Shown: piece by piece, positions 3,195 to 61,258 of the stretch | How the letters are laid out: each line of letters begins with the position of its first letter | How positions within the stretch are numbered: position 1 is the first letter of the stretch | Assembly (NCBI GenBank): GCA_964016885.1 | Contig: OZ024741.1 | Span: forward strand, 205,096,001 to 205,160,000 | Reading direction: 5' to 3' | DNA length: 64,000 bases | Source: Eledone cirrhosa | Taxonomy: Eukaryota | Position numbers and translations under genes: made by a program | The notes under the pieces: model-generated | What the model was told of the DNA's origin: nothing | Database searches by the model: none | What the model saw: only the letters and a program-made list of their open reading frames with translations

Positions 3195-3600
3195 TGTTTA
3201 ACGTCCATCTTCCACGCTAGCATGGATTAGATAGTTTTGTTCCATTTGATGCGGGGAACGGTTGGAGACCATGTCTCGCTCGCATGGAAGTGTCTCTGGC
3301 AGGTTTTTTTTTTTACAGCTGGATGCCCTTCCTAACACCAAGCACATTTACAGTCTGGACTGGGAGCCATTTCACCGGGTCTCCTACACGGCCACCTTAT
3401 AGTGTGGACTGTTGTGTCATCGACACAGTGGACGGAGAGGGGGGTGTGTGGCGGTGGGGCGTACATTGAGTTAAGAGGTGCCTACTGACTGTAGGTTTGT
3501 ATGCAATGGTAGTCGGGTCTTTTGTACAACTGCATGGCACCAAAGGTCTCAATCCAGTGTCATTATCTTGGAGAGGTGTAGGTGGGCAAGGTCAGTGTCT
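3195..3600 (-). mobile_element. RTE 3'-end fragment with the pseudoknot-like module
   Basis: Reverse complement of the CCATGCTAGCGTGGAAGATGGACGTTAAAC tail and of GTTAGGAAGGGCATCCAGCTGT. Confidence 0.75.
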
Positions 3601-3984
3601 TAAAATATTCATGCCTTTGTTACTTCCACACATTGATGTTCATATTTGTGTTCATGTTTTTCCATTACTGATGCAACAATCAAATGCATTTGGCACATTC
3701 TGTAGAGTATGGGAATGTATGTAAGCAGGATGCAGATCCCAGTCCATCTGAGATGTTAGTGGCTCCGATATGTGATGATCTGTTAAACCCTTCTAGCAGA
3801 GAAAACAGCTGTGAACTAATGATAATTGTGTTTCAGATTCATTATTTTACCTATGGCTTTTCATATAACTATCTGCTCATCCATTTTACTGTGAACCGAC
3901 CAAATGCTAAGATTCACACAAATTTAGGTGACACTAGACTACCCATGACCCATTGGGTCACGTTCACTTCAAAATAATTTTTAA

Positions 3985-4159
3985 CCCTTTAGCATTCACA
4001 TTTTCATGGTAAAGGCTTTACCTCACATAATATCGAATCTATGAGATTTTGAAAGTATTTATTTTGAGAACTAAACCATAACATCAGTTTGAGCGACCAG
4101 TTACAGCCAGTTTCAGCAGAAAGAGGTAGAGAATTCTGGCTGGTTTGAACATTAAAGGA
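3985..4159. mobile_element. piggyBac-like MITE (degenerate)
   Basis: TTAA-CCCTTTAGCATT start and TAAAGGA-TTAA end; internal similarity to 49046-49251. Confidence 0.65.
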
Positions 4160-5130
4160 TTAAATAAAATATACAGACATGTATATAATGTGAAATGAAA
4201 TGTGTGTATATATATAAATGTGTGTGTCTATATAATAATAATAATAATAATAATAATGAAATATTGTGTACAGTGCACTACAACTCATCAAAAAGTGTAT
4301 GTATAGTACATAGGGTAATGTACAAACGTCAGGAAAATGAACAGTGCATGAGTCATAATAGACACGTGTGCATGTGTATGGAAGGGGTACATCATATGTA
4401 CATGTGGGTGTCTGATCTCTATACACTCGTCACACACATATATATACAACAGCACCACCAGCTCTCTCTTCCATTCCCCTCCTTTCTATGTCTCTATTTC
4501 AATCTACTGTCTCACCTTGTTTTATTCCATTTGTATTTGCATTTCAGGGTCAACATCCTTTCAAAGTATTTTCCCATTATGCATCCTTTTGGCTGTATTA
4601 CATTACAGGCAAGCAAGCAATCACAAAGTTTTAGTAGTATATAGATGATCAATGTAAATATTCGCAATGAATGCACAATTACCCTTTCTTCAGTCTCATT
4701 TCCTCAATAAAGCCCTTTTATAACATAAATATTAAAATGTGTTCTGCACTGTATTTTGTAATTTATGTTGAAAGTATTAACTTATAACATCTTGTAATAA
4801 TTTAGCAGAAAATATCTAAAAATGTGTTTGTTGAGAAAATTTGCAGTAAATTTAATTTTTAATGACATAGTATGGTGCTGTTTTGTACTTTTCAAGAATG
4901 TCTTGTTAATGCACTTTCATACAGTGTTTTGTAATTCATATTAATAGAAATATACTCTATCTGTACTGAATCCAAAATTAATGCTCTAAATTTGAAGTTA
5001 TATGGTCACATAAATGATGAAGAAATATCTTTTCTGTTATCTTAACTATAATAAAGGAATGGTCTGTGGGATTGCGTCCAGAATATATTTTTTTACCCCA
5101 TTTGTAAAATAAGTTGGATTACTTTGAATA

Positions 5131-5303
5131 AATAATTGTTTCTACTTTTGGCACAAGGCCAGCAATTACCCAGTGTATTACTGGTACTTTATTTTATCGA
5201 CCCCATAAGGATGAAAGGCAAAGTTAACCTCGACGGGATTTGAACTCAGAATGGCAAGGGCCGTAACTCTGCGTCAAAGCATGGCGTCCGACCCTCTACC
5301 AAT
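5131..5303 (-). mobile_element. tRNA-derived SINE with a Nin/Deu-like domain
   Basis: Minus strand reads GAGTTCAAATCCC (B box) then TTTGCCTTTCATCCTTATGGGGTCGATAAAATAAAAGTACCAG. Confidence 0.8.
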
Positions 5304-6146
5304 ATGAATGAATATTACATAATTTATGTGCTAAATTTTGTGGCTGTTGATTAAATATATTTTATAGCTTATTTAAACATCTTTAAAATTATCAAATGTC
5401 AACACTTTCGGTTAGCGGCCGTTATATTATAACACTTATAATTGCATATATTTCCGTCCCTAATTTTCTCCTTATGCAGTTTATATATAACGTCGTCTTT
5501 TTTTTTAATATATCGTGGATTACTGATTACAGGAGACAGTGTAACATAAGCTTTGTTCAATTTCTGTGTATATTGTCAATTACGATTTTATTTGATGTAT
5601 CATATTTACATGCATATATATTTGTGTATAATATCAATATACACACTACACATGCTAGCAGAAAACCACCTGTAGGGTGGTTTTTCTGCTAGTTGTTATA
5701 ATTGTTCATGTCTGTTGTAGTTCATTTCTGTGATGTTTTTGTTGTTGCTTAAGATGGGAAAGTGTGCTTGTATCAATAATAAAGGTAATATAAACCAGAA
5801 AAAGAACATGGTTGCTCGACCTGCATGAAATAGCAGCCAAATATCTCTGAATTCACATCCTACCACCTTAAAAGAAAAAGTAAAGAGGCACATTGTATAA
5901 TAGTCCTATATACCTCTAAAGAGATGAGATGGTCATTGCAAGAATGCTTTGATCATTGGTTTGCTCAATCGAGTTTGATCCAAGGTTAAATAAATAACAT
6001 AAGCAGAAAATATGTATAAGAATTCTTTATCTTAGATTCTCATATCGAATAGATGTGATGAAAAATAATAAAAATATTTGCATGATGAATAAGATATCCC
6101 ACCCCCTAAATGATGTTATTTCTGTACAATCAGAGATGAATAAGTT

Positions 6147-6324
6147 TTAGTCCCAGAACTTGATGATGCCATCCCAGCCAGCTGTTGCTACTTTGGACGT
6201 CTCATGGGGGTGCCATAAAGTAGCTACACAGACATCATCATGGGCCTTAAACTGGCAGTAAAGTTTTGTGGTTTTCCAATCCCATATGTAAAGTTTGCCA
6301 TCAGCATCTCCACATATGATGTAA
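6147..6324 (-). CDS. CDC40: CDC40/PRP17 last coding exon (WD40)
   Basis: cag acceptor; (S)YIICGDADGKLYIWDWKTTKLYCQFKAHDDVCVATLWHPHETSKVATAGWDGIIKFWD-TAA matches the CDC40 C-terminus. Confidence 0.97.
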
Positions 6325-6424
6325 CTGAGGAAAAAAAGAAAAAAGAATTTAATCAAACCATTAAATAATATAAATATATAGTATAATTTTGGAGTGTGTG
6401 TGTATATATAAATAAATATATTTA

Positions 6425-7430
6425 CGTAACTAAGTTCAGAGAGCTTATACCACTATTAGCCGCTAGAGGGTTCTCCCTAAAAATGAAAGGCAGGTTATAC
6501 GATGCCTGCATACGAACAGCAATGCTGCATGGCAGTGAGACCTGGGCATTGTGTGCAGAGGATATACGCAGACTAGAGAGGAACGAAGCTTGCATGCTCC
6601 GCTGGATGTGCAATAGTAATATACGTGAACGGCAAAGCATAAACGAACTAAGGAAAAAATTAGAAATAAGAGGGATCAGATGTTGTTTACTCGAGAGAAG
6701 GCTACGTTGGTACGGTCACGTGATGCGCATGAAAGACGACAGCTGTATAACAAAGTGCAGGGCAATAAAGATAGACGGTAGCCACGGAGTAGGCAGACCC
6801 AGAAAAACCTGGGACGACATGATAAATTCCGACCTCACACGCTTACACCTCTCCAAGACAATGTCACTGGACCGAGACCTTTGGCGGTACTCAGTAATAG
6901 AGAAGACCCGCCTTACCTAAATACAAAGTAAAAACCTACTACAGTCAGTAGGCATCTCTATCAAAACACACCCCCGTCCCACCACCTCCATCCCATCCAC
7001 ACCGCCCCTTTCAATGTAAAGTTATGTTGGTCCCACAACATCCAGGCCGAAACAAATGAGATCGTGTAGGTGTCACGACAAAAAAACACACAGTCCACGC
7101 TGTAAATGTGGCCGTGTAGGCAACATGGTAAAAACCTCCCAGCCCCACACTGTAAATGTGGTTGGTGTTAGGAAGGGCATCCAGCTGTAGAAAACCCGCC
7201 AGACAGTCCACGCTGTAATGTGGCCGTGTAGGCAACATGGTAAAAACCTCCCAGCCCCACACTGTAAATGTGGTTGGTGTTAGGAAGGGCATCCAGCTGT
7301 AGAAAACCCGCCAGACAGTCCTATGCGAGCAAGACAACCACTCTTGCCTCAAGTGGGAAAACCCCCGTCCAAACCCATGCAAGCGTGGAACACGGACGCT
7401 AAACCCGATGATGATGATGATGATGATGAT
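6425..7430 (+). mobile_element. 5'-truncated RTE-type LINE (RT C-term, 3' UTR with repeated module, (GAT)n tail)
   Basis: ORF KGRLYDACIRTAMLHGSETW..RLRWYGHVMRM..GRPRKTW; near-identical copy at 58531-59334. Confidence 0.92.
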
Positions 7431-11769: not shown

Positions 11770-14700
11770 GTTGATTTGGATTCGTTCCAGCCACCCATCC
11801 ATACAAATTTTTCGAAGGTATTTAGCTTTTATTACGCTATTATTATTAATATTATTGTTGCTGTATTATCGGTTAGTTTGTTAGCCTTGCTGTATTATTA
11901 TATCGGCTATTTGCCATGCAGTATTTTATCGGTTAGTTTGTTAGCCTTGACGTCGACCCTCAGTGCCTACCTCACAATTTTCCGCCCACCCACCCCCTCA
12001 CACCACCAGAGCCTATTCGACCAATCAAACCTCAGCATGCCATTTCTTCTGCTGCTACTACTACTACTACTACCTAACTAACTCTCTCCTCCCCTGTCGC
12101 AGCCCAACACACCCTGCCATTATCCCACCACCACTGTTCTTCTAGCCCTCAATTTTCCCACCGTTATGGATGGATGGGCTGAGAATAAATTTGAGCAACT
12201 CTGAATCAATAGATGAAATATGAATCTGTGAGCTACCAAGCACCCATGTGAAGCGCCAATCCAGAGACCCTTCCCTACGAGTGTCGACAAATGCCCAAAA
12301 CTCCGAGTTGGTACCATCAATATAGGCTCAATGAAAGGAAGAGCAGGAGAAATCGTAGAAATGCTAGAGCGAAAGGAAATTGATGTATGCTGTGTGCAAG
12401 AGACTAGATGGAGAGGAGAGTCTGCCAGAGTCCTTGTAGGAAAAAGTCGGTGCTACAAATTTTTCTGGGTGGGAAATGACGATGGGATGGGTGGTGTAGG
12501 TATACTACTAACTGACAAGTGGGTAGATAAAGTAATCTCAGTGTACAGGGTAAATGCAAGAATCATTAAACTCAGACTAGTCCTGAATAAAACAATTACC
12601 ACAATAATATCAGCTTACGCACCCCAATCGGGGCTGCCAGACGAACTTAAGGATAGGTTTTACGAGTCCCTAATGCACACTACTGCTCTAACAGACGACA
12701 ATGACTTCCTAATCATCGCAGGAGATTTTAACGGACACGTAGGTAAACACTGCGACGGCTTCAATAGAGTACATGGAGGCCATGGGGTTGGCACAAGAAA
12801 TGAGGAAGGATTCAGACTTCTAGAATTCTGCGACGCCAATGACATGTCAATATGTAACACAAACTTTAAAAAACCCGACAACCACCTGATCACCTATAGA
12901 TCAGGGGAGCACTCCAGTCAGATAGATTTTATCCTCATCAGAGGACATGACAGATGGACGGTCGTAAACACAAAAGCCTTCCCTAGTGAGGAATGTACAT
13001 CCCAACATAGCTTAGTTGTCAGCGACCTCACGGTCAGAACTAGACGAACCTGGAAACAGAGGCCAGCCTGGAGAAGAAAGATCTGGAAGCTGAAAGACCT
13101 GTCAACCAGTAACAGATTTTAAAATATTTTACTCAACGCCTACGACAGTAAAGAAGAACAGATAGAGACATTCAATGTAGAAGAGAAATGGGAGTTCCTA
13201 AAAAATAATTTACTAGAGGCGACGGATGAGGTCTGTGGCTAAAGTAAGACTACAAGCAGGAGGAGAGTGACTTGGTGGTGGAACAATAAGGTAGATGAAG
13301 CAGTTAAGGCCAAGAGACAGGCATGGAAAGAATGGAAGAACGGGGGGAGCAGGGTACATTACATAGAGACCAAGAGGGAAGCTAGGCGACAAGTATACTT
13401 AGCTAGGAGGGAAGCAGAGGATAGAAAATTCAAGCATGTTTTGCAACGTGAGGACCAGAAACAGGAGGTGCTCAAGATTGCGAGGCAGTATGTCAGAGAT
13501 AGTTGTGATGTCATTGGAGAGAAGTGTATCCGGAATGATAAAGGTGAGCTTGCCCTCACAAGTGCTGAGAAGAAAGATGCATGGAAGAGTCATTATGATA
13601 GATTACTAAATGAGGAGAATGCGTGGGAAGAAGAGACCCCCCCCCCCCCCCCCCCCCCAAGTAGACCCTATAGAGGGGCCAGCAGTAAAAGTCAGCAGCA
13701 ACGTAGTAAGTAAGGCAATCAAAGATATGAAGATGGGGAAAGCAACCGGTCCATCGGGTATAGCTGCCGAGATGCTGAAGGCACCTGGGTCTGTAGGTCA
13801 CACTATAACCACACGTATTGTTAACCAGGTAATACTAGAAGGTGTCATACCAAAAGATTGGTGCAGTAGCATCATTGTCAACTGCTACAAAGGTAAAGGT
13901 GATGCACTAGATAGAGGAAACTATAGAGGTATAAAGTTGATGGACCAGGTCATGAAAGTAACAGAAAGAGTTATAGCACAGTTGATTAGGGACCGGGTGA
14001 AAATAGACGGGATGCAATTTGGGTTTGTACCAGGAAGAGGCACCACTGATGCCCTCTTCCTTGTGAGGCAGGAAAAGTACCTAGCTAAAAGTAAGCCACT
14101 CTACTTGGCATTTGTCGACCTTGAGAAAGCCTTTGACAGAGTTCCACGTGCTGTAATCTGGTGGGCTCTTAGAAAACTATGAGTAGATGAATGGCTTGTG
14201 AAAGCGGTACAAGCCATGTATAGGGGAGCAGTCAGCAAAGTTAGGATTAGCAATGAGTATAGCGAGGAATTTAGCGTACAGGTTGGGGTCCACCAGGGCT
14301 TTGTTCTTAGCCCCCTCCTGTTCATCATAGTCCTGCAGGCAATAACGGAGGAGTTTAAGACCGGATGCCCATGGGAACTCCTGTATGCTGATGACCTCGC
14401 ACATATAGCTGAATCTATGGTAGAACTAGAGAATAAATTCTAAACTTGGAAGCAGGGACTAGAAAGAAAGGGTCTCAAAGACAACATGACAAAGACTAAG
14501 GTCCTTGTAAGTAGACGAGAAAACAGAACCCAGATCCCCTCAGGGAAATGGCCTTGCTCAGTATGTAGGAAAGGTGTAGGTAGGAACTCCATTCTCTGCC
14601 CCAAATGCAAACAATGGGTACACAAGAGATGTAGCGGGATCTCAGGAAGCTTAATTAAGAATGTAGGCTTCACATGAAGCAGCTGTGCTGGGACAGCAAG

Positions 14701-15627
14701 CAGCAAACAGCCACAGGAAACAAGTACCACCAATCTCTGGGAGGGCTCTGTAGAAACAGTAGACAGCTTGTGCTACCTAGGTGACTGAATTAGCAGCGGA
14801 GGCGGGTGTTCAGAAAGTACAATAACTAGGGTAAGAACGGGATGGAAGAAGTTTAGGGAACTACTACCACTGCTAGCTGCAAAAGGCTTCTCCCTCAGAA
14901 TGAAAGGCAGACTATATGATGCGTGTATCCGAACAGCAATGTTGCATGGTAGTGAGACCTGGGCGCTGAAGGTGGAAGACTTATGTAGATTAGAAAGAAA
15001 CGAAGCCTGCATGCTCCGATGGATGTGTAACAGTAATATACGTGAACGACAAAGCATAAATGAATTGAGAGAGAGACTGAGCATAAGAGGAATCAAATGC
15101 TGTGTGCAGGAGAGGCGGTTGCGCTGGTATGGACATGTGATGCGTATGAAGGATGACATCTGCATAAAAAGGTGCAAAGCACTAGAAGTCGATGGAAACC
15201 GCGGAGTGGGGAGACCCAAGATGACCTGGGATGAGGTGATAAAAGCCGACCTTACCCAATTACACCTCTCAAAGGCAACACACACGACCGTGACCTCTGG
15301 CGTCACGCAGTAATACAGAGTACCCGACATCCCATGGGTACAAGCTGAAGCATATAGACAATATGCCCCCATGGAGGTGCCACGGCAAAAAAGCACCCAG
15401 CCCACACTGTAGAGTGGAGGTGTAGGCGCCACGAAAAAGCACCCAGCACTCACTGTAAATGAGGTTGGTGTTAGGAAGGGCATCCAGCTGTAGAAATCAA
15501 GCCAAATCAGTTCCTGTATGAGCAAGGCATGGTCAGCCGACCAGACACTGCCCACAACAGGACAACCCGTCTAACCCATGCTAGCGTGGAAGAACGGACG
15601 TAAAGTGGTGATGATGATGATGATGAT
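11770..15627 (+). mobile_element. Near full-length RTE-type LINE (APE endonuclease-RT-PHD), decayed
   Basis: RVGTINIGSMKGR, CVQETRW, GDFNGHVG, QIDFIL, YRGIKL, KAFDRVP, YADDL, CxxC..CxxC..HxxC, RLRWYGH; several stops; 3' UTR module and (GAT)n tail. The 5' boundary is approximate. Confidence 0.93.
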
Positions 15628-16119: not shown

Positions 16120-18303
16120 TTTATGACCATGCTGTAAAATGGAGGGGTAGAGAGGACCCATGAGTCCAGTAAGACATCCTCTCTAGAGCTGGTGGCACAA
16201 ACAAAAGCACCCAGTCCATGCTGTAAAGTGACGCTGGTGTTAGGAAGGGCATCCAACCAGTGTATCGATGACAAAACGATTATAAGCACAGCAACAAGTA
16301 TATAGGAACAACAAAAATATGAAGACGTCGCATCTCAGAGTTGCAACACTTAATGTTGGCACTCTCTCAGGTAGATCTGCTGCAGAGAAGACATGTGGAT
16401 GTGTGCTGCGTGCAAGAGGTGAGATGGAGAGGTGCCTCTGCGAGGCTAGTCGCAGGCAAACATCTTAGCTTTAAGCTTTTCTGGCTAGGTAAGGATGATG
16501 GGTTAGAGGGAGTAGGCATTTTCCTGGCAGAGAGATGGATCAATAAGACAATAGAGGTAGTTCGAGTTAGTAATCGAATAATTAAGCTTAGATTAGTTGT
16601 AGGTAGGAGACTGCTGACAATCATCTCTGCCTATGCTCCCCAAGCAGGCCTAGGCAAAGAAGAGAAAGACTGCTTTTACGAGCAACTTTTACAAACAACC
16701 GCAATGACAGAGGACGGAGACATCGTTATGCTAGCAGGGGTCTTCAATGGTCATGTTGGACAGCTCCAGGATGGTTACACTGGGGTACATGGTGGGCACA
16801 GTTACGGCTCAAGAAATAAAGAAGGAGTGAGACTTCTTGAATTTTGTGATGCAAGTTCACTGACTATTTGCAACACTAACTTCCAGAAATCTGCCAACCA
16901 CCTAATAACCTACAAATCAGGCGAGCACATAAGCCAGATTGACTTCTTACTAGTTAGGCAGTGGGACCGGCAGATGATGTCAAATACCAAGGCATACCCT
17001 GGGGAAGAATGTACCCCACAGCATAGGTTAGTCGTTAGTGATATCTCAGTAAGCAAGAGATGGAATGAGACATACAGGAAGGTGTGGAGAAGAAAGGTCT
17101 GGAAGTTAAGACCCTTTCACTAAAATACAAATTTAGGAAAGCCCTTCAAGATGTGTATGACGAAAAAGAAGACGATTTAGAGATGTATGACATAGATAAT
17201 AACTGGAATTTCTTACGTGACAACTTACTGCAGGCTACTGATGAAACTTGTGGCTGGAGCAGAGCTCCAATCAGACAGAGAATGACCTGGTGGTGGAACA
17301 GCACAGTAGATAAGGCCATTAGAGACAAAAGACTAGCATGGAAGGCTTGGAAAAAGGGTGGGAGTAGAGAAGGATATATAGCCGCTAAGAGAGAAGCTAG
17401 ACGTCAGGTGTACTTAGCACGCAGGGAGGCTGAGAGTAGGAGGTTTGCCAATGTTCTGCGATGGGAAGATCAGAGGCGTGCGGTGTTCCACATTGCAAGG
17501 CAGTGTGTCAATGCAAATCAGGATGTTGTTGGAGATAAATGTGTCCGGAATGATGCCGGTGTACTTAGTGTCACGAATGATCAGAAAAATGAGGCCTGGA
17601 AATGTCATTATGAGAGACTGATGAATGTGGAGAAGGAATGGGAGACAGAGAAATTACCCTCAGTAGATCCGACAGAGGGACCAGCTATTGAGATTGACGA
17701 ATATAGGGTCCAAGAGGCAATTAAGGAAATGAAAAATGGTATGCCGCTGGACCATCAGGCTGAGATGCTGAAGGCATCAGGGGACGTAGGCACTAAACTG
17801 GTTGCACACATCATCAATCAGGCTATATTTGGTGGTGTCATACCCAAAGACTGGTGCAGCAGTATTCTCATAAATTGCTACAAAGGTAAAGCGGATGCTC
17901 TGAGGAGGAGCAATTATAGGGGTATAAAACTGATGGATCAGGTTATGAAAGTGGCAGAAAAGATATTAGCACAACAATGGAGGCACATGGCTTAGTGGTT
18001 AGAGCATTGGCCTTGCAATCAAAAGGTTGTGAGTTCAATTCTCAGACCGGGTGATGTGTTGTTTCCTTGAGCAAGACACTTTATTTCACATTGCTCCAGT
18101 TTACTCAGCTGTAGAAATGAGATGATAGAGATTGAGGTCCCAGTCCCTATCATTCCACTGCAAAGTGGTCGTGGAGGTGCCACGGCAAAAAAGCACCCAG
18201 CACTCACTGTAAATGAGGTTGGTGTTAGGAAAGGCATCCAGCTGTAGAAATCAAGCCAGAATCAGTTCCTGTCCCACCCTTGCAAGCAGGGAAAAGCGGA
18301 TGT

Positions 18304-18341
<38 letters not shown>

Positions 18342-19752
18342 TGAATTAGAGAAAGTGTCAAACTAGATGAGATGCAGTTTGGTTTTGTTCCTGGGAAAAG
18401 TACCACAGTTGCCCTCTTCTTGGTGAGACAATTACAAGAGAGGTTCTTAGAGAAGAATAAGCCACTATACTTAGCCTTTCTTGACCTAGAGAAGGCCTTT
18501 GATAGGGTACCCCGATCTGTCATCTGGTGGGCCCTAAGGAAACTAGGTGTTGAGGAATGGCTCGTGAGGACAGTGTAAACTTTGTACAGAGGTACTGTCA
18601 GTAAAGTCAGGGTAGGAATGGAGTTTAGTGAGGAATTCCAGATACAAGTAGGAGTACATCAAGGTTTGGTCCTCAGCCCGCTCTTGTTCATTATAGTCCT
18701 CCAAGCCATAACAGAGGAGTTTAAGACTGGCTGTCCATGGGAACTTCTCTATGCTGACGATCTGGTTCTTATAGCAGAATCAGTAGAGGAGCTAAAGAAT
18801 AAATTCTGGCTATGGAAAAGGCAGTTGGAAGCAAGAGGACTGAGAGTGAACCTAGCTAAGACAAAAGTGTTGATGAGTAGAAAAGAGGACAAAACCCTGA
18901 TTCCGTCAGGGAAATGGCCATGTTTGATATGCAGAAAAGGAACTGGCATAAATTCTATAAAATGCACACAATGCAAATCCTGGGTACACAAGAGATGTAG
19001 TGGGATAGCAGGCAAACTAACAGGTAGGGAGAAATATGTATGCAGTAGATGTACAGGGAAATTAGACAGTAGAAGTTGCATTGATAGACACATTTTTCAA
19101 ATGCAGGGGGGTGCTATAAAAGTGGTGGATAGCTTCCGGTACCTAGGAGATCAGATTAGCATGGGAGGGGGGGTGTTCCGAAGCCATAATATCTAGAATA
19201 AGGACGAGTTGGAAGAAGTTTAGGGAGCTGCTTCCTCTGCTGACAAAGGGTTTCTCCCTGCGTACGAAAGGCCGGTTATATGATGCCTGTGTGAGGAGCG
19301 CGATGCTGCATGGTAGTGAGACATGGGCAGCAACTGCAGAGGATATGCGATGGCTGGAGAGAAATGATGCAAGCATGCTCCGTTGGATGTGCAATGTCAA
19401 TGTGTGCGAATGACCCAGCATGAATGTGGTGAGAGAGTAACTGTGTCTGAGAGGGATAGAATGTAGTGTGCGAGAGAGGAGACTGAGGTGGTATGGACAT
19501 GTGATGCGCATGGAGGATGACTGATGGGTGAAGAACTGCTAGGAAATGCCAGTTGAAGGAAGACGTGGTAGAGGTAGACCACAAAAAACATGGGCGGAGG
19601 TGGTGAGAACAGACCTCAGATCACTGAAGCTCACGGTGGAGATGACGAAGGACCGTGACAAGTGGAGAGATGCTGTGCTGAATAAGACCCGTCCCACCCT
19701 TGCAAGCAGGGAAAAGTGGACATAAAATGATGATGATGATGATGATGATGAT
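16120..19752 (+). mobile_element. Near full-length RTE-type LINE (second subfamily) interrupted by a SINE
   Basis: APE and RT ORFs at 16341-19196 and beyond; tail CCCACCCTTGCAAGCAGGGAAAAGTGGAC-(GAT)n; the module lies in its 5' UTR. Confidence 0.93.
17979..18340 (+). mobile_element. tRNA-derived CORE-like SINE with an RTE-derived tail, inserted in the LINE ORF
   Basis: A box TGGCTTAGTGG, B box GAGTTCAATTC, CCTTGAGCAAGACACTT core, module and (GAT)n tail. The LINE frame resumes after it (IAQ..IRESVKLDEMQFGF). Confidence 0.9.
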
Positions 19753-19899: not shown

Positions 19900-20283
19900 A
19901 TCGTAGGCACCTCTTAACCAAATATACACCCCAACCCACTGCCCCTACTCCATCCGCCCACTCCCACCAACACCACCCTTTCTCTGTAAAGTTATGTTGG
20001 TACCACAGAACATCCAGTCGACACTAAAGAGGTTGCGTAGGTGTCACAGCAAAAAGCACCCAGTCCACGCTGTAAAGTGGTCATGTAGGAGACAGGGTAA
20101 AAAGGCTCCCAGTCCACACTGTAAATGTGGTTGGTGTTAGGAAGGGCATCCAGCTGTAGAAAACCTGCCAGATACAATCCTGTACGAGTGAGACATGATC
20201 ACCCGATTATCTTGCCTTAAGTGGGACAATTCCCTTCTAGACCCATGCTAGCATGGAAGATAGACATTAAATGATGATGATGA

Positions 20284-20330: not shown

Positions 20331-20692
20331 GAAGGCACATGGCTTAGTGGTTAGAGCATTAGGCTTGCAATCGAAAGGTTGTGGGTTTAATTCTCGGATC
20401 GGGTGATGTGTTGTTTCCTTGAGCAAGACACTTTATTTCACGTTGCTCCAGTTTACTCAGCTGTAGAAATGAGATGATAGGACTGGGGTCCCTATCATTT
20501 CACGGGGGTCCCTATCATGCCACGAAAAAAAAGCACCCAGTACTCACTGTAAATGAGGTTGGTATTAGGAAGGGCATCCAGCTGTAGAAATCAGGCCAGA
20601 ATCAGTTCCTGTATGAGCAAGACAGGACAACCCGTCTAACTCATGCTAGCGTCGAAGAACGGACGTAAAACGGTGATGATGATGATGATGAT
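20331..20692 (+). mobile_element. tRNA-derived CORE-like SINE, alternative tail
   Basis: Same head as 17979. The tail GGACAACCCGTCTAACTCATGCTAGCGT is shared with the LINE ending at 15627. Confidence 0.88.
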
Positions 20693-20835: not shown

Positions 20836-21179
20836 CACATGGCTTAGTGGTTAGAGCATTGGCCTTGCAATCGAAAGGTTGTGAGTTCAATTCTCAGACC
20901 GGGTGATGTGTTGTTTCCTTGAGCAAGACACTTTATTTCACATTGCTCCAGTTTACTCAGCTGTAGAAATGAGATGATAGGGACTGGGGTCCCTATCATT
21001 CCACTGTAAAGTGGTCGTGGAGGTGCCACGGCAAAAAAGCACCCAGCACTCACTGTAAATGAGGTTGGTGTTAGGAAGGGCATCCAGCTGTAGAAATCAA
21101 GCCAGAATCAGTTCCCGTCCTACCCTTGCAAGCAGGGAAAAATGGACGTAAAATGAAATGATGAAATGATGATGATGAT
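20836..21179 (+). mobile_element. tRNA-derived CORE-like SINE
   Basis: Near-identical to 17979-18340 and 60829-61163. Confidence 0.9.
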
Positions 21180-21960: not shown

Positions 21961-23201
21961 GAAATAATTGTTGTTGCTGTTTAATAGATGGTGACACTCC
22001 TACTGATATCACCACATATGGAGAGAATTACATGAACATTGGAACAAACTGGTTTGCAGCATTCAATTATATCCTTTTGTAAAAGTGTATGACATTATGG
22101 TTTGGTTCTCAACCATAATGGCATGACACAATTGCTCTTTGTGTCCTTGAGCAAGATACTTTTTTCTATGTTGCTTCATTACACTCAGCTGAAAAAATGA
22201 GTCTTACCTCTACAAAAGGCCAGCCTAGTCACACACCATGTTATGCAGTGTTAAGGGTACATTTGTCTAAGGGTACATTAAAACTTTTCTGAATGCTCAG
22301 CCATTTGCATGTTAATTTCAGAAGCAGGTTGTTCAATTGGTCAAACAACTGGGGAATTCATTGCAATTTATAGTCCAAAATCAAACACCTTTTATATATT
22401 AAATGGGAAGTGGAGGAACAGCATAAAATAAAATACTGCAGCATTCATGCCTTTCCAATAGGCAATAATTAACAGCAATAGAAATGAAATGGGTTTTAAC
22501 TAAGAACAGTAGCTAGGCTTTAGGCTTAGACTATCCTCCTTCAGTGTGGGCTTACTGAGGCATAATAACAGCTATCACGAAAGAGAGAGAGAGAGAAATA
22601 AGAAAACTAAAAGCTGAAAAATTTGTAGTAAAATCACATTTGTCCAATATGCTCTGCATACACCTTCATCACCGCCTCCCTACCCTTACCCACAACAGTG
22701 TCCTTGCCCCAAAATAGAAATGGTTTTATCAAATTTCTCTGCAATCTCAGTCTAGAACAAAGTTCTTTGTTCTGCAGAGAACCTACATGGTGTGTAACCA
22801 TGGCAATACTACAGATAAATAAACCACCTAAATAGGATATGAGAAACACAGCAAATTAAATATATCATCATCACCATTTTACATCCATTCTTCCACGCTA
22901 GTATGGGTTAGATGAGTTGTCCTGTTGTGGGCAATGCCAGGTCATGTGACCATGTCTTGCTCATACAGAACTGATTCTGGCTTGGTTTCGACAGCTGGAT
23001 GCCCTTCCTAATGCCAACCTCATTTACAGTGTGGGCTGGGTGCTTTTTGTCGCGACACCTACACAACCACTTTACAGTGTCGGCTGAGTGCTTTTTGCTG
23101 TGTCACCATCATGACTACCTTACAGTATATATCTATATATATACTCAATTTGCTGTGCTTTTGCTTCATTTAGAATTTTTCTTCAATTTGGAATTTTTTA
23201 A

Positions 23202-51476: not shown

Positions 51477-51820
51477 CTGTATTATTTATGGGAAAATAGA
51501 CATTAAATAATGATGATATATACATATACATATATATAGGTGTCACGACAAAAATCACCCAGCCCACACTGTAAAGTGGTCGTGTAGGAGTCACAGCAAA
51601 AATCACCCAGCCCACACTGTAAATGTGGTTGGCGTTAGGAAGGGCATCCAGCTGTAAAAATCTAGCCAGAAACAGTTCTGTATGAGCAGGATATGGTCAC
51701 CTGCCCCAACCTGCCTCAAATGGGACAACCCATCTAACCCATGCTGGTATGGAAGGTGGACGATAAACGACGATGATGATATATATAGATAAGCAAAAGG
51801 GATATTTAATTAATTATTTG

Positions 51821-53199: not shown

Positions 53200-53534
53200 T
53201 TCATCATTTCATTTTATGTCCGCTTTTTCCCCTGCTTGCAAGGGTGGGACGGGAACTGATGCTGGCTTGATTTCTACAGCTGGATGCCCTTCCTAACACC
53301 AACCTCATTTACAGTGAGTGCTGGGTGCTTTTTTGCCGTGGCACCTCCACGACCACTTTGCAGTGGAATGATAAGGACCTCAGTCCCTATCATCTCATTT
53401 CTACAGCTGAGTAAACTGGAGCAATGTGAAATAAAGTGTCTTGCTCAAGGAAACAACACATCACCCGGTCTGAGAATTGAACTCACAACCTTTTGATTGC
53501 AAGGCCAATGCTCTAACCACTAAGCCATGTGCCT

Positions 53535-58530: not shown

Positions 58531-59334
58531 CTGTATGATGCCTGCATACGAACAGCAATGTTACATGGCAGTGAGACCTGGGCATTGTGTGCAGAGGATA
58601 TACGCAGACTGGAGAGGAACGAAGCTTGCATGCTCCGCTGGATGTGTAATAGTAATATACGTGAACGGCAAAGCATAAACGAACTAAGGGACAAATTAGA
58701 AATAAGAGGGATCAGATGTTGTTTACTCGAGAGAAGACTATGTTGGTATGGTCACGTGATGCGCATGAAAGACGACAGCTGTATAAAAAAGTGCAGGGCA
58801 ATAAAAATAGACGGTAGCCACTGAGTAGGCAGACCCAGAAAAACCTGAGACGACTTGATAAATTCCGACCTCACACACTTGCACCTCTCCAAGACAATGT
58901 CACTGGACCGAGATCTTTGGCGCTACACAGTAATAGAGAAGACCCGCCTTACCTAAGTACAAAGTGAAACCTACTACAGTCAGTAGGCACCTCTAACAAA
59001 ATACCCCCCCCCCCCCCGTCCCACTACCCCCACCCCTTTCAATGTAAAGTTATGTTGGTACCACAACATCCAGGCCGAAACAAATGAGGTCGTGTAGGTG
59101 TCACGACAAAAAAACACACAGTCCACGCTATAATGTGGCCATGTAGGTAACACGGTAAAAACCTCCCAGTTCCACACTGTAAATGTGGTTGGTGTTAGGA
59201 AGGGCATCCAGCTGTAGAAAACCTGCCAGATAGTCCTATGCGAGCAAGACAACCACTCTTGCCTCAAGTGGGAAAACTCCCGTCCAAACCCATGCAAGCG
59301 TGGAATATGCACGTTAAACGATGATGATGATGAT
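58531..59334 (+). mobile_element. 5'-truncated RTE LINE
   Basis: Near-identical to 6495-7430 but with fewer module repeats. Confidence 0.9.
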
Positions 59335-60637: not shown

Positions 60638-60820
60638 CAAAAAGGCCGCCGTAAGATACCAGGTGGGCCATAACGCACCAGAGTACTCGATACTTGGGGT
60701 AGTAGAATGGGAAATATGAAAAGATTCAAGACCCCGACGGCTGAGCTCCGGCCATTTTGACAGCTAAATCCGCTGTTGAAACAGCCGGAGCTGAGGCGTC
60801 AGGGTCCTGAATATTTTCAT
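60636..60820 (-). mobile_element. Second copy of the (TA)n-inserted hairpin element
   Basis: The reverse complement aligns along the full length of 35975-36165. Confidence 0.75.
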
Positions 60821-60828
60821 ATATATAT

Positions 60829-61163
60829 GGAGGCACATGGCTTAGTGGTTAGAGCATTGGCCTTGCAATCGAAAGGTTGTGAGTTCAATTCTCAGACCGG
60901 GTGATGTGTTGTTTCCTTGAACAAGACACTTTATTTCACATTGCTCCAGTTTACTCAGCTGTAGAAATGAGATGATAGGGACTGGGGTCCCTATCATTCC
61001 ACTGCAAAGTGGTCGTGGAGGTGCCACGGCAAAAAAGCACCCAGCACTCACTGTAAATGAGGTTGGTGTTAGGAAGGGTATCCAACTGTAGAAATCAAGC
61101 CAGAATCAGTTCTCCTCCCACCCTTGCAAGCAGGGAAAAGCAGATGTAAAATGATGATGATGA
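60829..61163 (+). mobile_element. tRNA-derived CORE-like SINE
   Basis: Same family as 17979. Confidence 0.9.
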
Positions 61164-61179
61164 TATATATATATACACA

Positions 61180-61258
61180 CAGGGTGTCCCCCCAAAAAAT
61201 GAATACACATTTCAACAGCATTCTAATAAAAGTATGTATACATTTTTTGGAACACTGT
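61180..61258. mobile_element. Tiny Tc1-like MITE
   Basis: CAGGGTGTCCCCCAAAAAATG / CATTTTTTGGAACACTG-TA. Confidence 0.6.

What the first reader, a model, noticed from the sequence alone, without database searches (positions are those of the whole stretch)
7060..7320. Tandemly amplified ~47-nt covarying pseudoknot-like RNA unit in retroelement UTRs
Seen: a unit of the form CCACACTGTAAAGTGG-TCGTG-TAGGTGT-CACGAC-AAAAAG-CACC-CAG is repeated about 1-5 times before a constant cap, GTGGTTGGTGTTAGGAAGGGCATCCAGCTGTAGAAA. Locations include 7060-7320, 15369-15500, 20030-20165, 44857-44995, 46865-47115 (-), 47528-47705, 51538-51660 and 59085-59225. Stem 1 covaries: GTCGTG/CACGAC in the consensus, GTCATG/CATGAC at ~44892, CGTGG/CCACG in the SINEs. 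Stem 2 also covaries: loop GGTG with CACC, GGAG with CTCC at ~20088 and ~3365 (-), GGGC with GCCC at ~36560. Two interleaved stems with an A-rich linker define an H-type pseudoknot. Inference: this is a structured RNA array of variable copy number, possibly for RT binding, nuclease protection, translation control or an uncharacterised catalytic role.
Basis: partly seen in the sequence, partly recalled or inferred. Interest (0 to 1): 0.75.

Follow-up and report, generated by a model that had tools for sequence, protein, structure and literature searches.

The report
Retrotransposon tail repeats, not a pseudoknot
The repeated 47-base unit and its constant cap are the shared 3' tail of a very abundant family of jumping genes (LINEs) and their small dependent partners (SINEs); the tail likely folds into simple hairpins that the element's copying enzyme would recognise, and the proposed pseudoknot is not supported.

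Summary
The cap's 23-mer occurs 75,134 times in the 3.0-Gb genome, against 0 for a reversed control.

It is the 3' UTR module of related single-ORF (endonuclease, reverse transcriptase, PHD-like finger) non-LTR retrotransposons, RTE-like by layout. A SINE with a tRNA-like head carries the same module. All copies end in a second hairpin and a (GAT)n tail.

Each unit holds two short hairpins, an A-run and a C-rich tail. Arrays carry 1-4 units as a rule. One locus has 18 units, and a 112-nt higher-order repeat reaches 8 or more copies.

The hairpin before the cap covaries cleanly between lineages (A:U 66, U:A 54, unpaired 6). Stem 1 shows lineage-level compensation, but its CpG-type double changes are no commoner than chance. 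Stem 2, which would make the pseudoknot, is unpaired at its two variable positions in 65 and 42 of 148 units. It is weakest in the youngest, most active lineage.

Folding energies are ordinary, RNAalifold predicts no pairs, and Rfam has no match for the module. Verdict: an ordinary LINE/SINE tail with reiterated hairpins.

The parts
6387..6920 (+). C-terminal end of the LINE-A open reading frame (stop at 6918-6920), directly upstream of the 3' UTR that holds the finding
   Evidence: This is an open frame. Residues 90-251 of the C-terminal piece of a related copy (L123) match 6432-6917 at 98.8% identity.
7055..7091 (+). LINE-A unit 1. It is partial: the stem-1 hairpin GATCGTG/CACGAC, an A-run and the tail CACACAG.
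   Evidence: nhmmer hit covering profile positions 7-42; sequence.
7098..7141 (+). LINE-A unit 2. It holds hairpin A, a 7-bp stem 1 (GCCGTGT/ACATGGT) with loop AGGCA, then AAAAA and CCTCCCAG.
   Evidence: The stem-2 register gives only 2 of 4 pairs.
7143..7193 (+). Terminal hairpin (CCACA, loop CTGTAAA, TGTGG) followed by the 36-nt cap
7202..7321 (+). Second copy of the 112-nt higher-order repeat: unit 2, terminal hairpin, cap and ACCCGCCAGACAG. It is bounded by the 7-nt direct repeat ACAGTCC.
   Evidence: TRF finds a 112-nt period, 2.1 copies, 99% matches. The junctions are read. Other copies of this LINE carry 1, 2, 3, 4 or at least 8 repeats.
7375..7429 (+). 3'-terminal hairpin CCATG-CAAG-CGTGG, then the (GAT)n tail that ends the element
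   Evidence: The hairpin and tail are present in all aligned LINE and SINE tails.
12232..15313 (+). Degraded LINE-B body with endonuclease and reverse-transcriptase frames
   Evidence: Pfam gives Exo_endo_phos and RVT_1. Identity to the LINE-A pieces is 65-79%.
15370..15499 (+). LINE-B 3' module: a partial unit 1, unit 2 (degenerate stem 1, loop GGCG), terminal hairpin CTCA/TGAG and cap
16323..19700 (+). Degraded LINE-C body (endonuclease, reverse transcriptase, PHD-like finger), interrupted by a SINE insertion near 18000-18340
20025..20165 (+). LINE-C 3' module: unit 1 (GGTG/CACC), unit 2 (GGAG/CTCC), terminal hairpin and cap
18156..18253 (+). SINE copy: one unit (GNRA-type hairpin CCACT-GCAA-AGTGG, 7-bp stem 1), terminal hairpin and cap
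21002..21099 (+). SINE copy: one unit, terminal hairpin and cap
53268..53365 (-). SINE copy: one unit, terminal hairpin and cap
60828..61165 (+). Whole SINE: tRNA-like head (60838-60895), central body, unit (61000-61043), terminal hairpin, cap (61059-61094), 3' hairpin and (GAT)n
   Evidence: The tRNA model scores 28.1 bits against a cut-off of 29, E=7e-4.
22983..23126 (-). 5'-truncated tail copy: two units, terminal hairpin and cap
44854..44994 (+). 5'-truncated tail copy: two units with GTCATG/CATGAC, terminal hairpin and cap
46865..47104 (-). Tail copy with four units, the largest array in the window
47526..47707 (+). Tail copy with about three units
51537..51663 (+). Tail copy: a partial unit, one full unit, terminal hairpin and cap
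59083..59223 (+). LINE-A' tail without the 112-nt duplication (loop AGGTA)
3297..3404 (-). LINE-E tail: one unit (GGAG/CTCC), terminal hairpin and cap

Best explanation
The 47-nt unit and its cap are the common 3'-UTR module of an abundant family of single-ORF non-LTR retrotransposons and of the SINE that carries the same tail; the module likely acts as the site the family's reverse transcriptase would recognise on its RNA, through short hairpins and conserved sequence rather than a pseudoknot.

Shown:
- The module lies between the stop codon and a 3'-terminal hairpin plus (GAT)n tail.
- LINE lineages whose proteins are only 53-79% identical carry it, and so does a SINE with a tRNA-like head.
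- The terminal hairpin and the cap are its most conserved parts.
- Each unit is hairpin A (conserved loop CTGTAAA, or a GCAA tetraloop), stem-1 hairpin (6-7 bp), an A-run and a C-rich tail.
- Unit number varies between insertions.

Inferred:
- The LINE protein would bind the module in cis, and SINE transcripts would borrow it.
- The (GAT)n tail would prime reverse transcription at the target.
- Arrays grow and shrink by slippage or template switching between the repeated motifs. The 112-nt duplication is bounded by a 7-nt direct repeat.
For: Identity as a transposon tail:
- The cap 23-mer occurs 36,965 + 38,169 times in the genome, against 0 for the reversed control.
- The module follows endonuclease/reverse-transcriptase frames.
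- Relatives are 1,030-1,100-aa EN-RT-PHD proteins on contigs of 3.4-4 kb.
- The SINE head scores 28.1 bits on the tRNA model.
- The aligned tails share terminal hairpin, cap, 3' hairpin and (GAT)n.

Constraint:
- The cap 23-mer is exact in LINE copies that are 53-79% identical in protein.
- In the aligned window tails, the LINE-A', LINE-B and LINE-C copies read the same from GGTTGG to the cap's end, while their flanks diverge.

Hairpins:
- Terminal hairpin: 90.9% of cells paired. Pair 46:77 is A:U 66, U:A 54, other 6, among 131 distinct tails of 189.
- Stem 1: 86.0% paired against 81.0% in shuffles, and 58 doubly changed cells against 37.6 (0 of 500 shuffles reach it). Pair 23:43 is U:G 60, C:G 37, U:A 20; pair 30:38 is G:C 51, U:A 47.
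- Hairpin A occurs as CCACC/GGTGG, CCACT/GGTGG and CCACT/AGTGG, a path through a wobble pair.

Copy-number change:
- Arrays of 1, 2, 3, 4 and 18 units number 87, 86, 7, 2 and 1.
- The 112-nt repeat occurs 1-4 and at least 8 times.
- ACAGTCC lies at both duplication junctions.
Against: - Structure is weak by energy: z-scores of ten folds run from -1.71 to +0.97, and the young 112-nt repeat gives +0.97.
- RNAalifold predicts 0 pairs on the 148 units.
- Covariation rests on few independent lineage events. The shuffle control does not correct for relatedness.
- LINE-B unit 2 has only a 4-bp stem 1.
- Older, divergent copies have only about 3 bp in the terminal hairpin. Conservation may therefore be of sequence rather than of pairing.
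- Binding by the reverse transcriptase was not tested.
- The RTE assignment rests on layout and size, not on a tree.
Confidence: 0.62

Rival explanations
1. One reading: each unit folds as an H-type pseudoknot. Stem 1 would be joined by loop GGUG pairing with the downstream CACC across an A-rich linker. The array would then act in RT binding, nuclease resistance, translation control or catalysis.
For: - The geometry is plausible in some units. In the SINE unit, stem 1 is 7 bp, 1 nt precedes GGUG, and a 7-nt A-rich linker follows.
- Full 4-of-4 complementarity occurs in GGTG/CACC (80 of 306 unit hits) and GGAG/CTCC (6).
- The GG and CC columns are nearly invariant.
- There is a small excess of doubly changed cells: 11 against 6.3, reached by 14 of 500 shuffles. 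For T:A against A:T, Fisher p=0.01, uncorrected for relatedness.
Against: - The two variable pairs are unpaired in 65 and 42 of 148 distinct units.
- Of the abundant unit types, only the SINE / LINE-B unit 1 keeps 4 of 4 pairs. LINE-A unit 2 (loops AGGCA and AGGTA) keeps 2 of 4. LINE-B unit 2 and LINE-A unit 1 keep 3 of 4.
- The series GGAG, GGAA, GGTA, GGCA on CTCC tails loses pairing towards the youngest lineage. That lineage has at least 40 copies at 99-100% identity.
- Only one compensated lineage exists.
- In 5-nt loops, four of the five bases would have to pair.
- The CACC tail can instead pair with GGUG of the cap in nested minimum-energy folds.
- No Rfam match.
Confidence: 0.1
2. No RNA structure matters. 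The units would be neutral minisatellite-like duplications inside a tolerant UTR. The conserved letters (CTGTAAA, TAGG, the A-run, CCCAG, the cap) would be linear protein-binding motifs, or would simply reflect recent common descent.
For: - Ordinary folding energies and no RNAalifold consensus.
- Free variation in copy number, including an 18-unit single-locus array and arrays of at least 8 copies of the 112-nt repeat.
- A degenerate stem 1 in LINE-B unit 2.
- CpG double changes at chance level.
- Old copies keep the sequence but only about 3 bp of the hairpin.
Against: - There is a clean A:U to U:A swap in the terminal hairpin, with only 6 of 126 counted cells (5 of the 131 tails have a gap at this pair) unpaired.
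- Stem 1 shows wobble-mediated paths: U:A, U:G, C:G.
- Hairpin A shows C:G, U:G, U:A.
- These changes are fixed in high-copy lineages, which neutral drift in a source gene would rarely produce on both sides of a pair.
Confidence: 0.25

Closest known systems
Stringent-type LINE/SINE pairs that share a 3' tail, such as eel UnaL2/UnaSINE1. Kajikawa and Okada 2002 is cited in PMC5786205, where I read passages; the details are recalled.
   Same: A LINE and a tRNA-derived SINE carry the same 3' end, with a conserved stem-loop and a short tandem-repeat tail. In those systems the reverse transcriptase recognises that end.
   Different: Here the conserved block (terminal hairpin plus cap) lies 150-200 nt upstream of the 3' end. 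Reiterated two-hairpin units precede it in variable number. The LINE looks RTE-like rather than L2-like. Nothing has been tested at the bench.
RTE-clade LINEs and the SINEs derived from them. Malik and Eickbush 1998 appears in the reference list of PMC9115989. The same paper describes octopus RTE elements; I read passages.
   Same: One ORF of about 1,050 aa with endonuclease and reverse transcriptase, an element of about 3.6 kb, a microsatellite tail and SINE partners.
   Different: Clade membership was not tested with a tree. A PHD-like finger follows the reverse transcriptase. I could not compare with RTE-2_OV, because no sequence of it was available to the tools.
CORE-SINEs, including octopus OR1/OR2. 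Ohshima and Okada 1994 is cited in PMC4824008 and PMC4758252; I read passages.
   Same: A tRNA-like head, a central body and a LINE-derived tail. By recall, the body here resembles the CORE domain.
   Different: Identity with OR1/OR2 or with the CORE domain could not be tested, because no SINE library is on hand.
H-type pseudoknots of retroelement and viral RNAs, such as the R2 3' UTR and luteovirus frameshift signals (recalled).
   Same: Some units have a hairpin whose loop is complementary to a stretch beyond an A-rich linker.
   Different: The second stem is not conserved or compensated across lineages, and the loops are often only 5 nt.
Tandem exoribonuclease-resistant RNAs in flavivirus 3' UTRs (recalled).
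   Same: Duplicated structured units in a 3' UTR.
   Different: No Rfam family matches the module, no three-way junction is predicted, and folding energy is ordinary.

Membership tests
LINE/SINE shared 3' tail | The module lies at the 3' end of an element that encodes an AP-type endonuclease and a reverse transcriptase | tested here: met
   Pfam gives Exo_endo_phos and RVT_1 upstream of the modules. tblastn maps LINE bodies that end at the modules.
LINE/SINE shared 3' tail | The same tail is on a short element with a small-RNA-derived head | tested here: met
   The SINE copies share unit, terminal hairpin, cap, 3' hairpin and (GAT)n with LINE-B. The head scores 28.1 bits on the tRNA model, 0.9 bit under the cut-off. 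ARAGORN calls none.
LINE/SINE shared 3' tail | The element ends in a short tandem repeat | tested here: met
   (GAT)n or (ATG)n follows the 3' hairpin in the copies read.
LINE/SINE shared 3' tail | The tail is required for reverse transcription by the partner LINE | not testable with these tools
   This needs a mobility or binding assay.
H-type pseudoknot | Loop bases of stem 1 pair with a downstream stretch in most members | tested here: not met
   Pair 36:57 is unpaired in 65 of 148 units and pair 37:56 in 42 of 148. Only one of the five abundant unit types keeps 4 of 4 pairs.
H-type pseudoknot | Compensatory changes support the second stem | tested here: inconclusive
   One compensated lineage exists (GGAG/CTCC; 6 and 5 doubly changed cells). 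14 of 500 shuffles reach the observed count. Relatedness is not corrected for.
H-type pseudoknot | The pairing is seen by chemical probing | not testable with these tools
   No probing data are available, and no RNA run is listed.
Exoribonuclease-resistant RNA (Rfam families) | The sequence and structure match a curated model | tested here: not met
   No match at gathering scores in the window. There are only chance-level hits at E up to 10 in 6900-7420 and 60800-61200.
RTE clade of non-LTR retrotransposons | A single ORF with endonuclease and reverse transcriptase in an element of about 3.2-4 kb | tested here: met
   In L123 the element spans about 3700-7400, with EN, RT and PHD-like frames. 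Relatives are 1,030-1,100 aa on contigs of 3.4-4 kb.
RTE clade of non-LTR retrotransposons | The reverse transcriptase groups with RTE in a phylogeny | not tested
   No reference RT sequences were available to the tools. The database names were uninformative.
CORE-SINE | A central CORE domain | not testable with these tools
   The resemblance is recalled only. No SINE or Dfam library is on hand.

The most novel reading that the evidence does not exclude
The units are reiterated copies of one protein-binding hairpin that also sits in the SINE's central, CORE-like body.
- The body holds ACTCAGCTGTAGAAATGAG. The terminal hairpin holds ACTCACTGTAAATGAG. The cap holds the same 12-mer, CAGCTGTAGAAA.
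- If so, this LINE family carries, in variable dose, the element that the long-unexplained CORE domain of SINEs imitates. In the SINE-type unit it may be stiffened by a GGUG:CACC pseudoknot.
- That would give the CORE domain a testable function: recruiting the LINE's protein.
Probability: 0.12. Interest if true: 0.6.

Novelty: new member of a known kind. Interest (0 to 1): 0.2.

Why it matters
As it stands, this is routine repeat annotation.
- It explains a motif that fills this genome: at least 75,000 copies of the cap.
- It shows which parts of the tail are constrained. These are the terminal hairpin with loop CTGTAAA, the cap, and the 3' hairpin.
- It gives a clean case where apparent covariation seen by eye is partly CpG decay and shared descent.

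It would matter more if the conserved hairpin and cap proved to be the binding site of the LINE protein. The SINE/LINE pair would then be a tractable system for studying tail recognition in an RTE-like element. The link to the SINE's central body could also be tested.

Tried and rejected
- RNAalifold on the 148 aligned units gave no consensus pairs.
- Single-sequence folds of whole tails were inconsistent between copies, apart from the local hairpins.
- Folding z-scores showed no unusual stability.
- A nested alternative for the C-rich tail, pairing with GGTG of the cap, appears in minimum-energy folds. Covariation does not support it, because the cap does not vary: pair 36:84 is A:U 67, other 59.
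- Sequencing runs: no RNA holder is listed.
- Contigs of four runs were laid on 6900-7420. Two organisms hold near-identical tails and a third holds the cap region. Contigs cannot show RNA ends.
- Naming the LINE clade from database names failed; the hits carry no useful names.
- ARAGORN found no tRNA gene.
- Rfam found nothing for the module.
- The search for homology between the SINE body and the LINE tail gave only a 12-mer: score 24 against a shuffle mean of 14; 0, 1 and 2 of 500 shuffles reached it in three tails. In the fourth tail the score was 19 and 26 of 500 reached it.
- Paper searches: the cap sequence occurs in no held paper. Searches on octopus or cephalopod SINE/LINE tails, with passages read in five papers, gave no description of these units. 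Ohshima and Okada 1994 and Akasaki 2010 are not in the library, and supplements were not opened. They may hold related sequences.
- Earlier-findings look-ups returned nothing.

Full report
**What is there.**
- The region 7060-7320 reads as a partial unit, a full unit, a terminal hairpin and the 36-nt cap. The last three, plus 13 more bases, are then repeated once: a 112-nt period, 2.1 copies, 99% matches.
- The cap's 23-mer has 19 matches with up to 3 mismatches in the window and none in 100 shuffles.
- The 16-mer that starts the unit has 24 matches, against a mean of 0.55 in shuffles.
- A profile search finds 27 unit hits in the window.
So do about ten others: 3310(-), 18228, 20568, 21074, 22986(-), 26617, 28921(-), 36614, 53271(-) and 61072.

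**What it belongs to.**
- The window is part of a 3.0-Gb genome.
- The cap 23-mer occurs there 36,965 times forward and 38,169 times in reverse. The reversed control pattern occurs 0 times.
- In the window the module always sits at the 3' end of one of two kinds of element.
- The first kind follows frames with an AP-type endonuclease, a reverse transcriptase and a PHD-like finger.
  - tblastn with pieces of one copy maps about a dozen related LINE bodies in the window, at 27-99% protein identity.
  - A nearly full copy (L123) spans about 3.6 kb.
  - Database relatives are 1,030-1,100-aa EN-RT-PHD proteins on contigs of 3.4-4 kb.
  - That layout is RTE-like. I did not test the assignment with a tree.
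- The second kind is a roughly 330-nt SINE.
  - Its head scores 28.1 bits on the tRNA model, against a cut-off of 29 (E=7e-4). ARAGORN calls no tRNA.
  - By recall only, its central body looks like a CORE domain.
- Downstream of the cap, every lineage runs on through a variable stretch. It then reaches a second small hairpin (CCATG, loop C[A/T]AG, CGTGG) and a (GAT)n tail.
- Of 190 caps in a 741-kb sample, 57 are of LINE-A type, 36 of LINE-B type, 45 are SINE, 47 are other, and 5 lie too near an end to classify.
- The sample is not random. It consists of the window, 200 kb beside it, 20 scattered 10-kb stretches, and stretches chosen because they held exact caps.

**Anatomy of the unit.**
- A unit reads hairpin A, stem-1 hairpin, an A-run of 5-7, then C[A/T]CCCAG.
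- Hairpin A has a conserved loop. It is CTGTAAA on stems such as CCAC/GTGG, or a GCAA tetraloop on CCACT/AGTGG or CCACC/GGTGG.
- Stem 1 has 6-7 bp in four of the five abundant unit types.
- The last, partial unit is a hairpin (CCACA or CTCA, loop CTGTAAA, TGTGG or TGAG) that runs into the cap.
- The start of the cap resembles the start of stem 1, so the array looks like repeated partial duplication of the terminal region.

**Copy number.**
- In the sample, arrays hold 1, 2, 3, 4 and 18 full units in 87, 86, 7, 2 and 1 cases.
- The 18-unit array is a single-locus expansion.
- The 112-nt higher-order repeat of the young LINE-A lineage occurs 1, 2 or 4 times in unselected copies.
- Among copies found with a two-copy query, it occurs 2, 3 or at least 8 times.
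- At least 40 genomic copies of the duplicated form are 99-100% identical.
- Both junctions of the duplication carry ACAGTCC. This fits slippage, unequal exchange or template switching.

**Is it structured?**
- I aligned 148 distinct full-length units.
  - Of 306 hits, 225 were full length and 162 of those were distinct.
  - The first 150 were taken, two with long insertions were left out, and the 18-unit array counted once.
  - On these units:
    - Stem 1 is paired in 86.0% of cells, against 81.0% in shuffles.
    - It has 58 doubly changed cells against 37.6 expected; 0 of 500 shuffles reach that.
    - It is far above the slid controls.
- The informative stem-1 pairs differ between lineages. 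Pair 23:43 is U:G 60, C:G 37, U:A 20. Pair 30:38 is G:C 51, U:A 47, and unpaired in 49.
There the double changes number 4 against 3.4 expected (p=0.46) and 4 against 2.5 (p=0.23). This is what independent CpG decay gives.
- The terminal hairpin is the best case. In 131 distinct tails of 189, 90.9% of cells pair. One pair is A:U in 66, U:A in 54, and unpaired in 6.
- These are few events, and they are shared by many copies.
- Against strong structure:
  - RNAalifold predicts no pair on the 148 units.
  - Ten folds give z-scores from -1.71 to +0.97.
  - Old, divergent copies keep the letters but only about 3 bp of the hairpin.

**The pseudoknot.**
- Stem 2 would pair loop GGTG with CACC beyond the A-run.
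- Its two G:C pairs never vary, so they say nothing either way.
- Its two variable pairs are U:A 75, A:U 6, unpaired 65, and G:C 97, A:U 5, G:U 4, unpaired 42.
- By unit type:

| Unit type | Stem-2 pairs kept |
|---|---|
| SINE / LINE-B unit 1 | 4 of 4 |
| Small GGAG/CTCC group | 4 of 4 |
| LINE-A unit 2, loops AGGCA and AGGTA | 2 of 4 |
| LINE-B unit 2 | 3 of 4, with an inner mismatch |
| LINE-A unit 1 | 3 of 4 |

- On CTCC tails the loops run GGAG, GGAA, GGTA, GGCA. Pairing is weakest in the lineage that is youngest by copy identity.
- There is a small excess of doubly changed cells: 11 against 6.3, reached by 14 of 500 shuffles. For T:A against A:T, Fisher p=0.01, uncorrected for relatedness. 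It comes from one lineage.
- Minimum-energy folds pair the C-rich tail with the cap instead. The cap does not vary, so that alternative has no covariation either.
- I conclude that the pseudoknot is not supported, though it is not excluded for the SINE-type unit.

**What is constrained.**
- LINE-B and LINE-C copies are 65-79% and 53-77% identical to the LINE-A protein pieces. They carry an exact cap 23-mer.
- Their aligned tails read the same from GGTTGG to the end of the cap, while the flanking UTR has diverged.
- Contigs from other organisms also hold the cap.
- The cap and the hairpin before it are therefore the likeliest functional core. The upstream units look like dispensable extra doses, since the most successful element, the SINE, keeps only one.

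**How it most likely works (inferred).**
- The LINE protein would bind the terminal hairpin and cap of its own RNA.
- SINE transcripts with the same tail would compete for that protein.
- The (GAT)n end would anneal at the nicked target to prime reverse transcription.
- Jumps between the repeated CTGTAAA hairpins would add or remove units.
- This is how other LINE/SINE pairs with common tails are thought to work. The literature on that is recalled, and is cited in passages I read in PMC5786205 and PMC9115989.

**Comparison and novelty.**
- No Rfam family matches the module.
- The cap sequence is in no held paper.
- The papers on cephalopod and mollusc repeats that I read in passages do not describe these units. 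The original octopus SINE paper is not in the library.
- I file the finding as a new member of a known kind, a LINE/SINE common 3' tail. Its local peculiarity is that the hairpin module is reiterated. Interest is low.

Noticed in passing
window 41555-41634 (+): An HDV-like self-cleaving ribozyme: the Rfam CPEB3_ribozyme model scores 55.7 bits against a cut-off of 35. It lies about 1.3 kb upstream of a degraded RT-like frame (42933-43574, 27% identical to the LINE-A RT). It is probably the 5' ribozyme of a different LINE family.
   Followed up: partly
L046:1404-2292 (G000:C7:10001404-10002292): The unit has expanded at one locus into an array of 18 or more near-identical copies, like a minisatellite. 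In this variant, stem 1 carries an A:T pair where a related three-unit array (L081:1086-1236) has a mismatch.
   Followed up: partly
L001 and L008 (G000:C3:145213968-145220267): The 112-nt higher-order repeat of LINE-A forms arrays of at least 8 copies in each of two adjoining loci. Together they may be one array of 16 or more.
   Followed up: partly
window 60940-60975 and 61046-61097 (+): The SINE's central body holds ACTCAGCTGTAGAAATGAG. This equals its own terminal hairpin ACTCACTGTAAATGAG apart from two inserted G. It also shares the 12-mer CAGCTGTAGAAA with the cap (score 24 against a shuffle mean of 14; 0, 1 and 2 of 500 shuffles reached it in three of four tails, while the fourth scored 19 with 26 of 500 reaching it).
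   Followed up: partly
window 18579-19196 (+); L123:2221-3357 and 6176-6931: A PHD-type zinc finger follows the reverse transcriptase in these LINE frames (Pfam PHD, E about 1e-6). I do not recall this as usual for RTE-like elements.
   Followed up: no
window 20500-20590 (+): In this SINE copy, hairpin A and the 5' arm of stem 1 are replaced by a duplicated piece of the body hairpin (GGGGTCCCTATCAT twice).
   Followed up: no
L121:6080-7078: A 28-nt tandem repeat of 36 copies lies directly upstream of a LINE-A 3' UTR, where the ORF should be.
   Followed up: no
window 7238 (+): The window copy reads T where all laid contigs of two other organisms, and most genomic copies, read C (ACATGG against ACACGG). 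This is a CpG decay in the 3' arm of stem 1 that turns a G:C pair into G:U.
   Followed up: no
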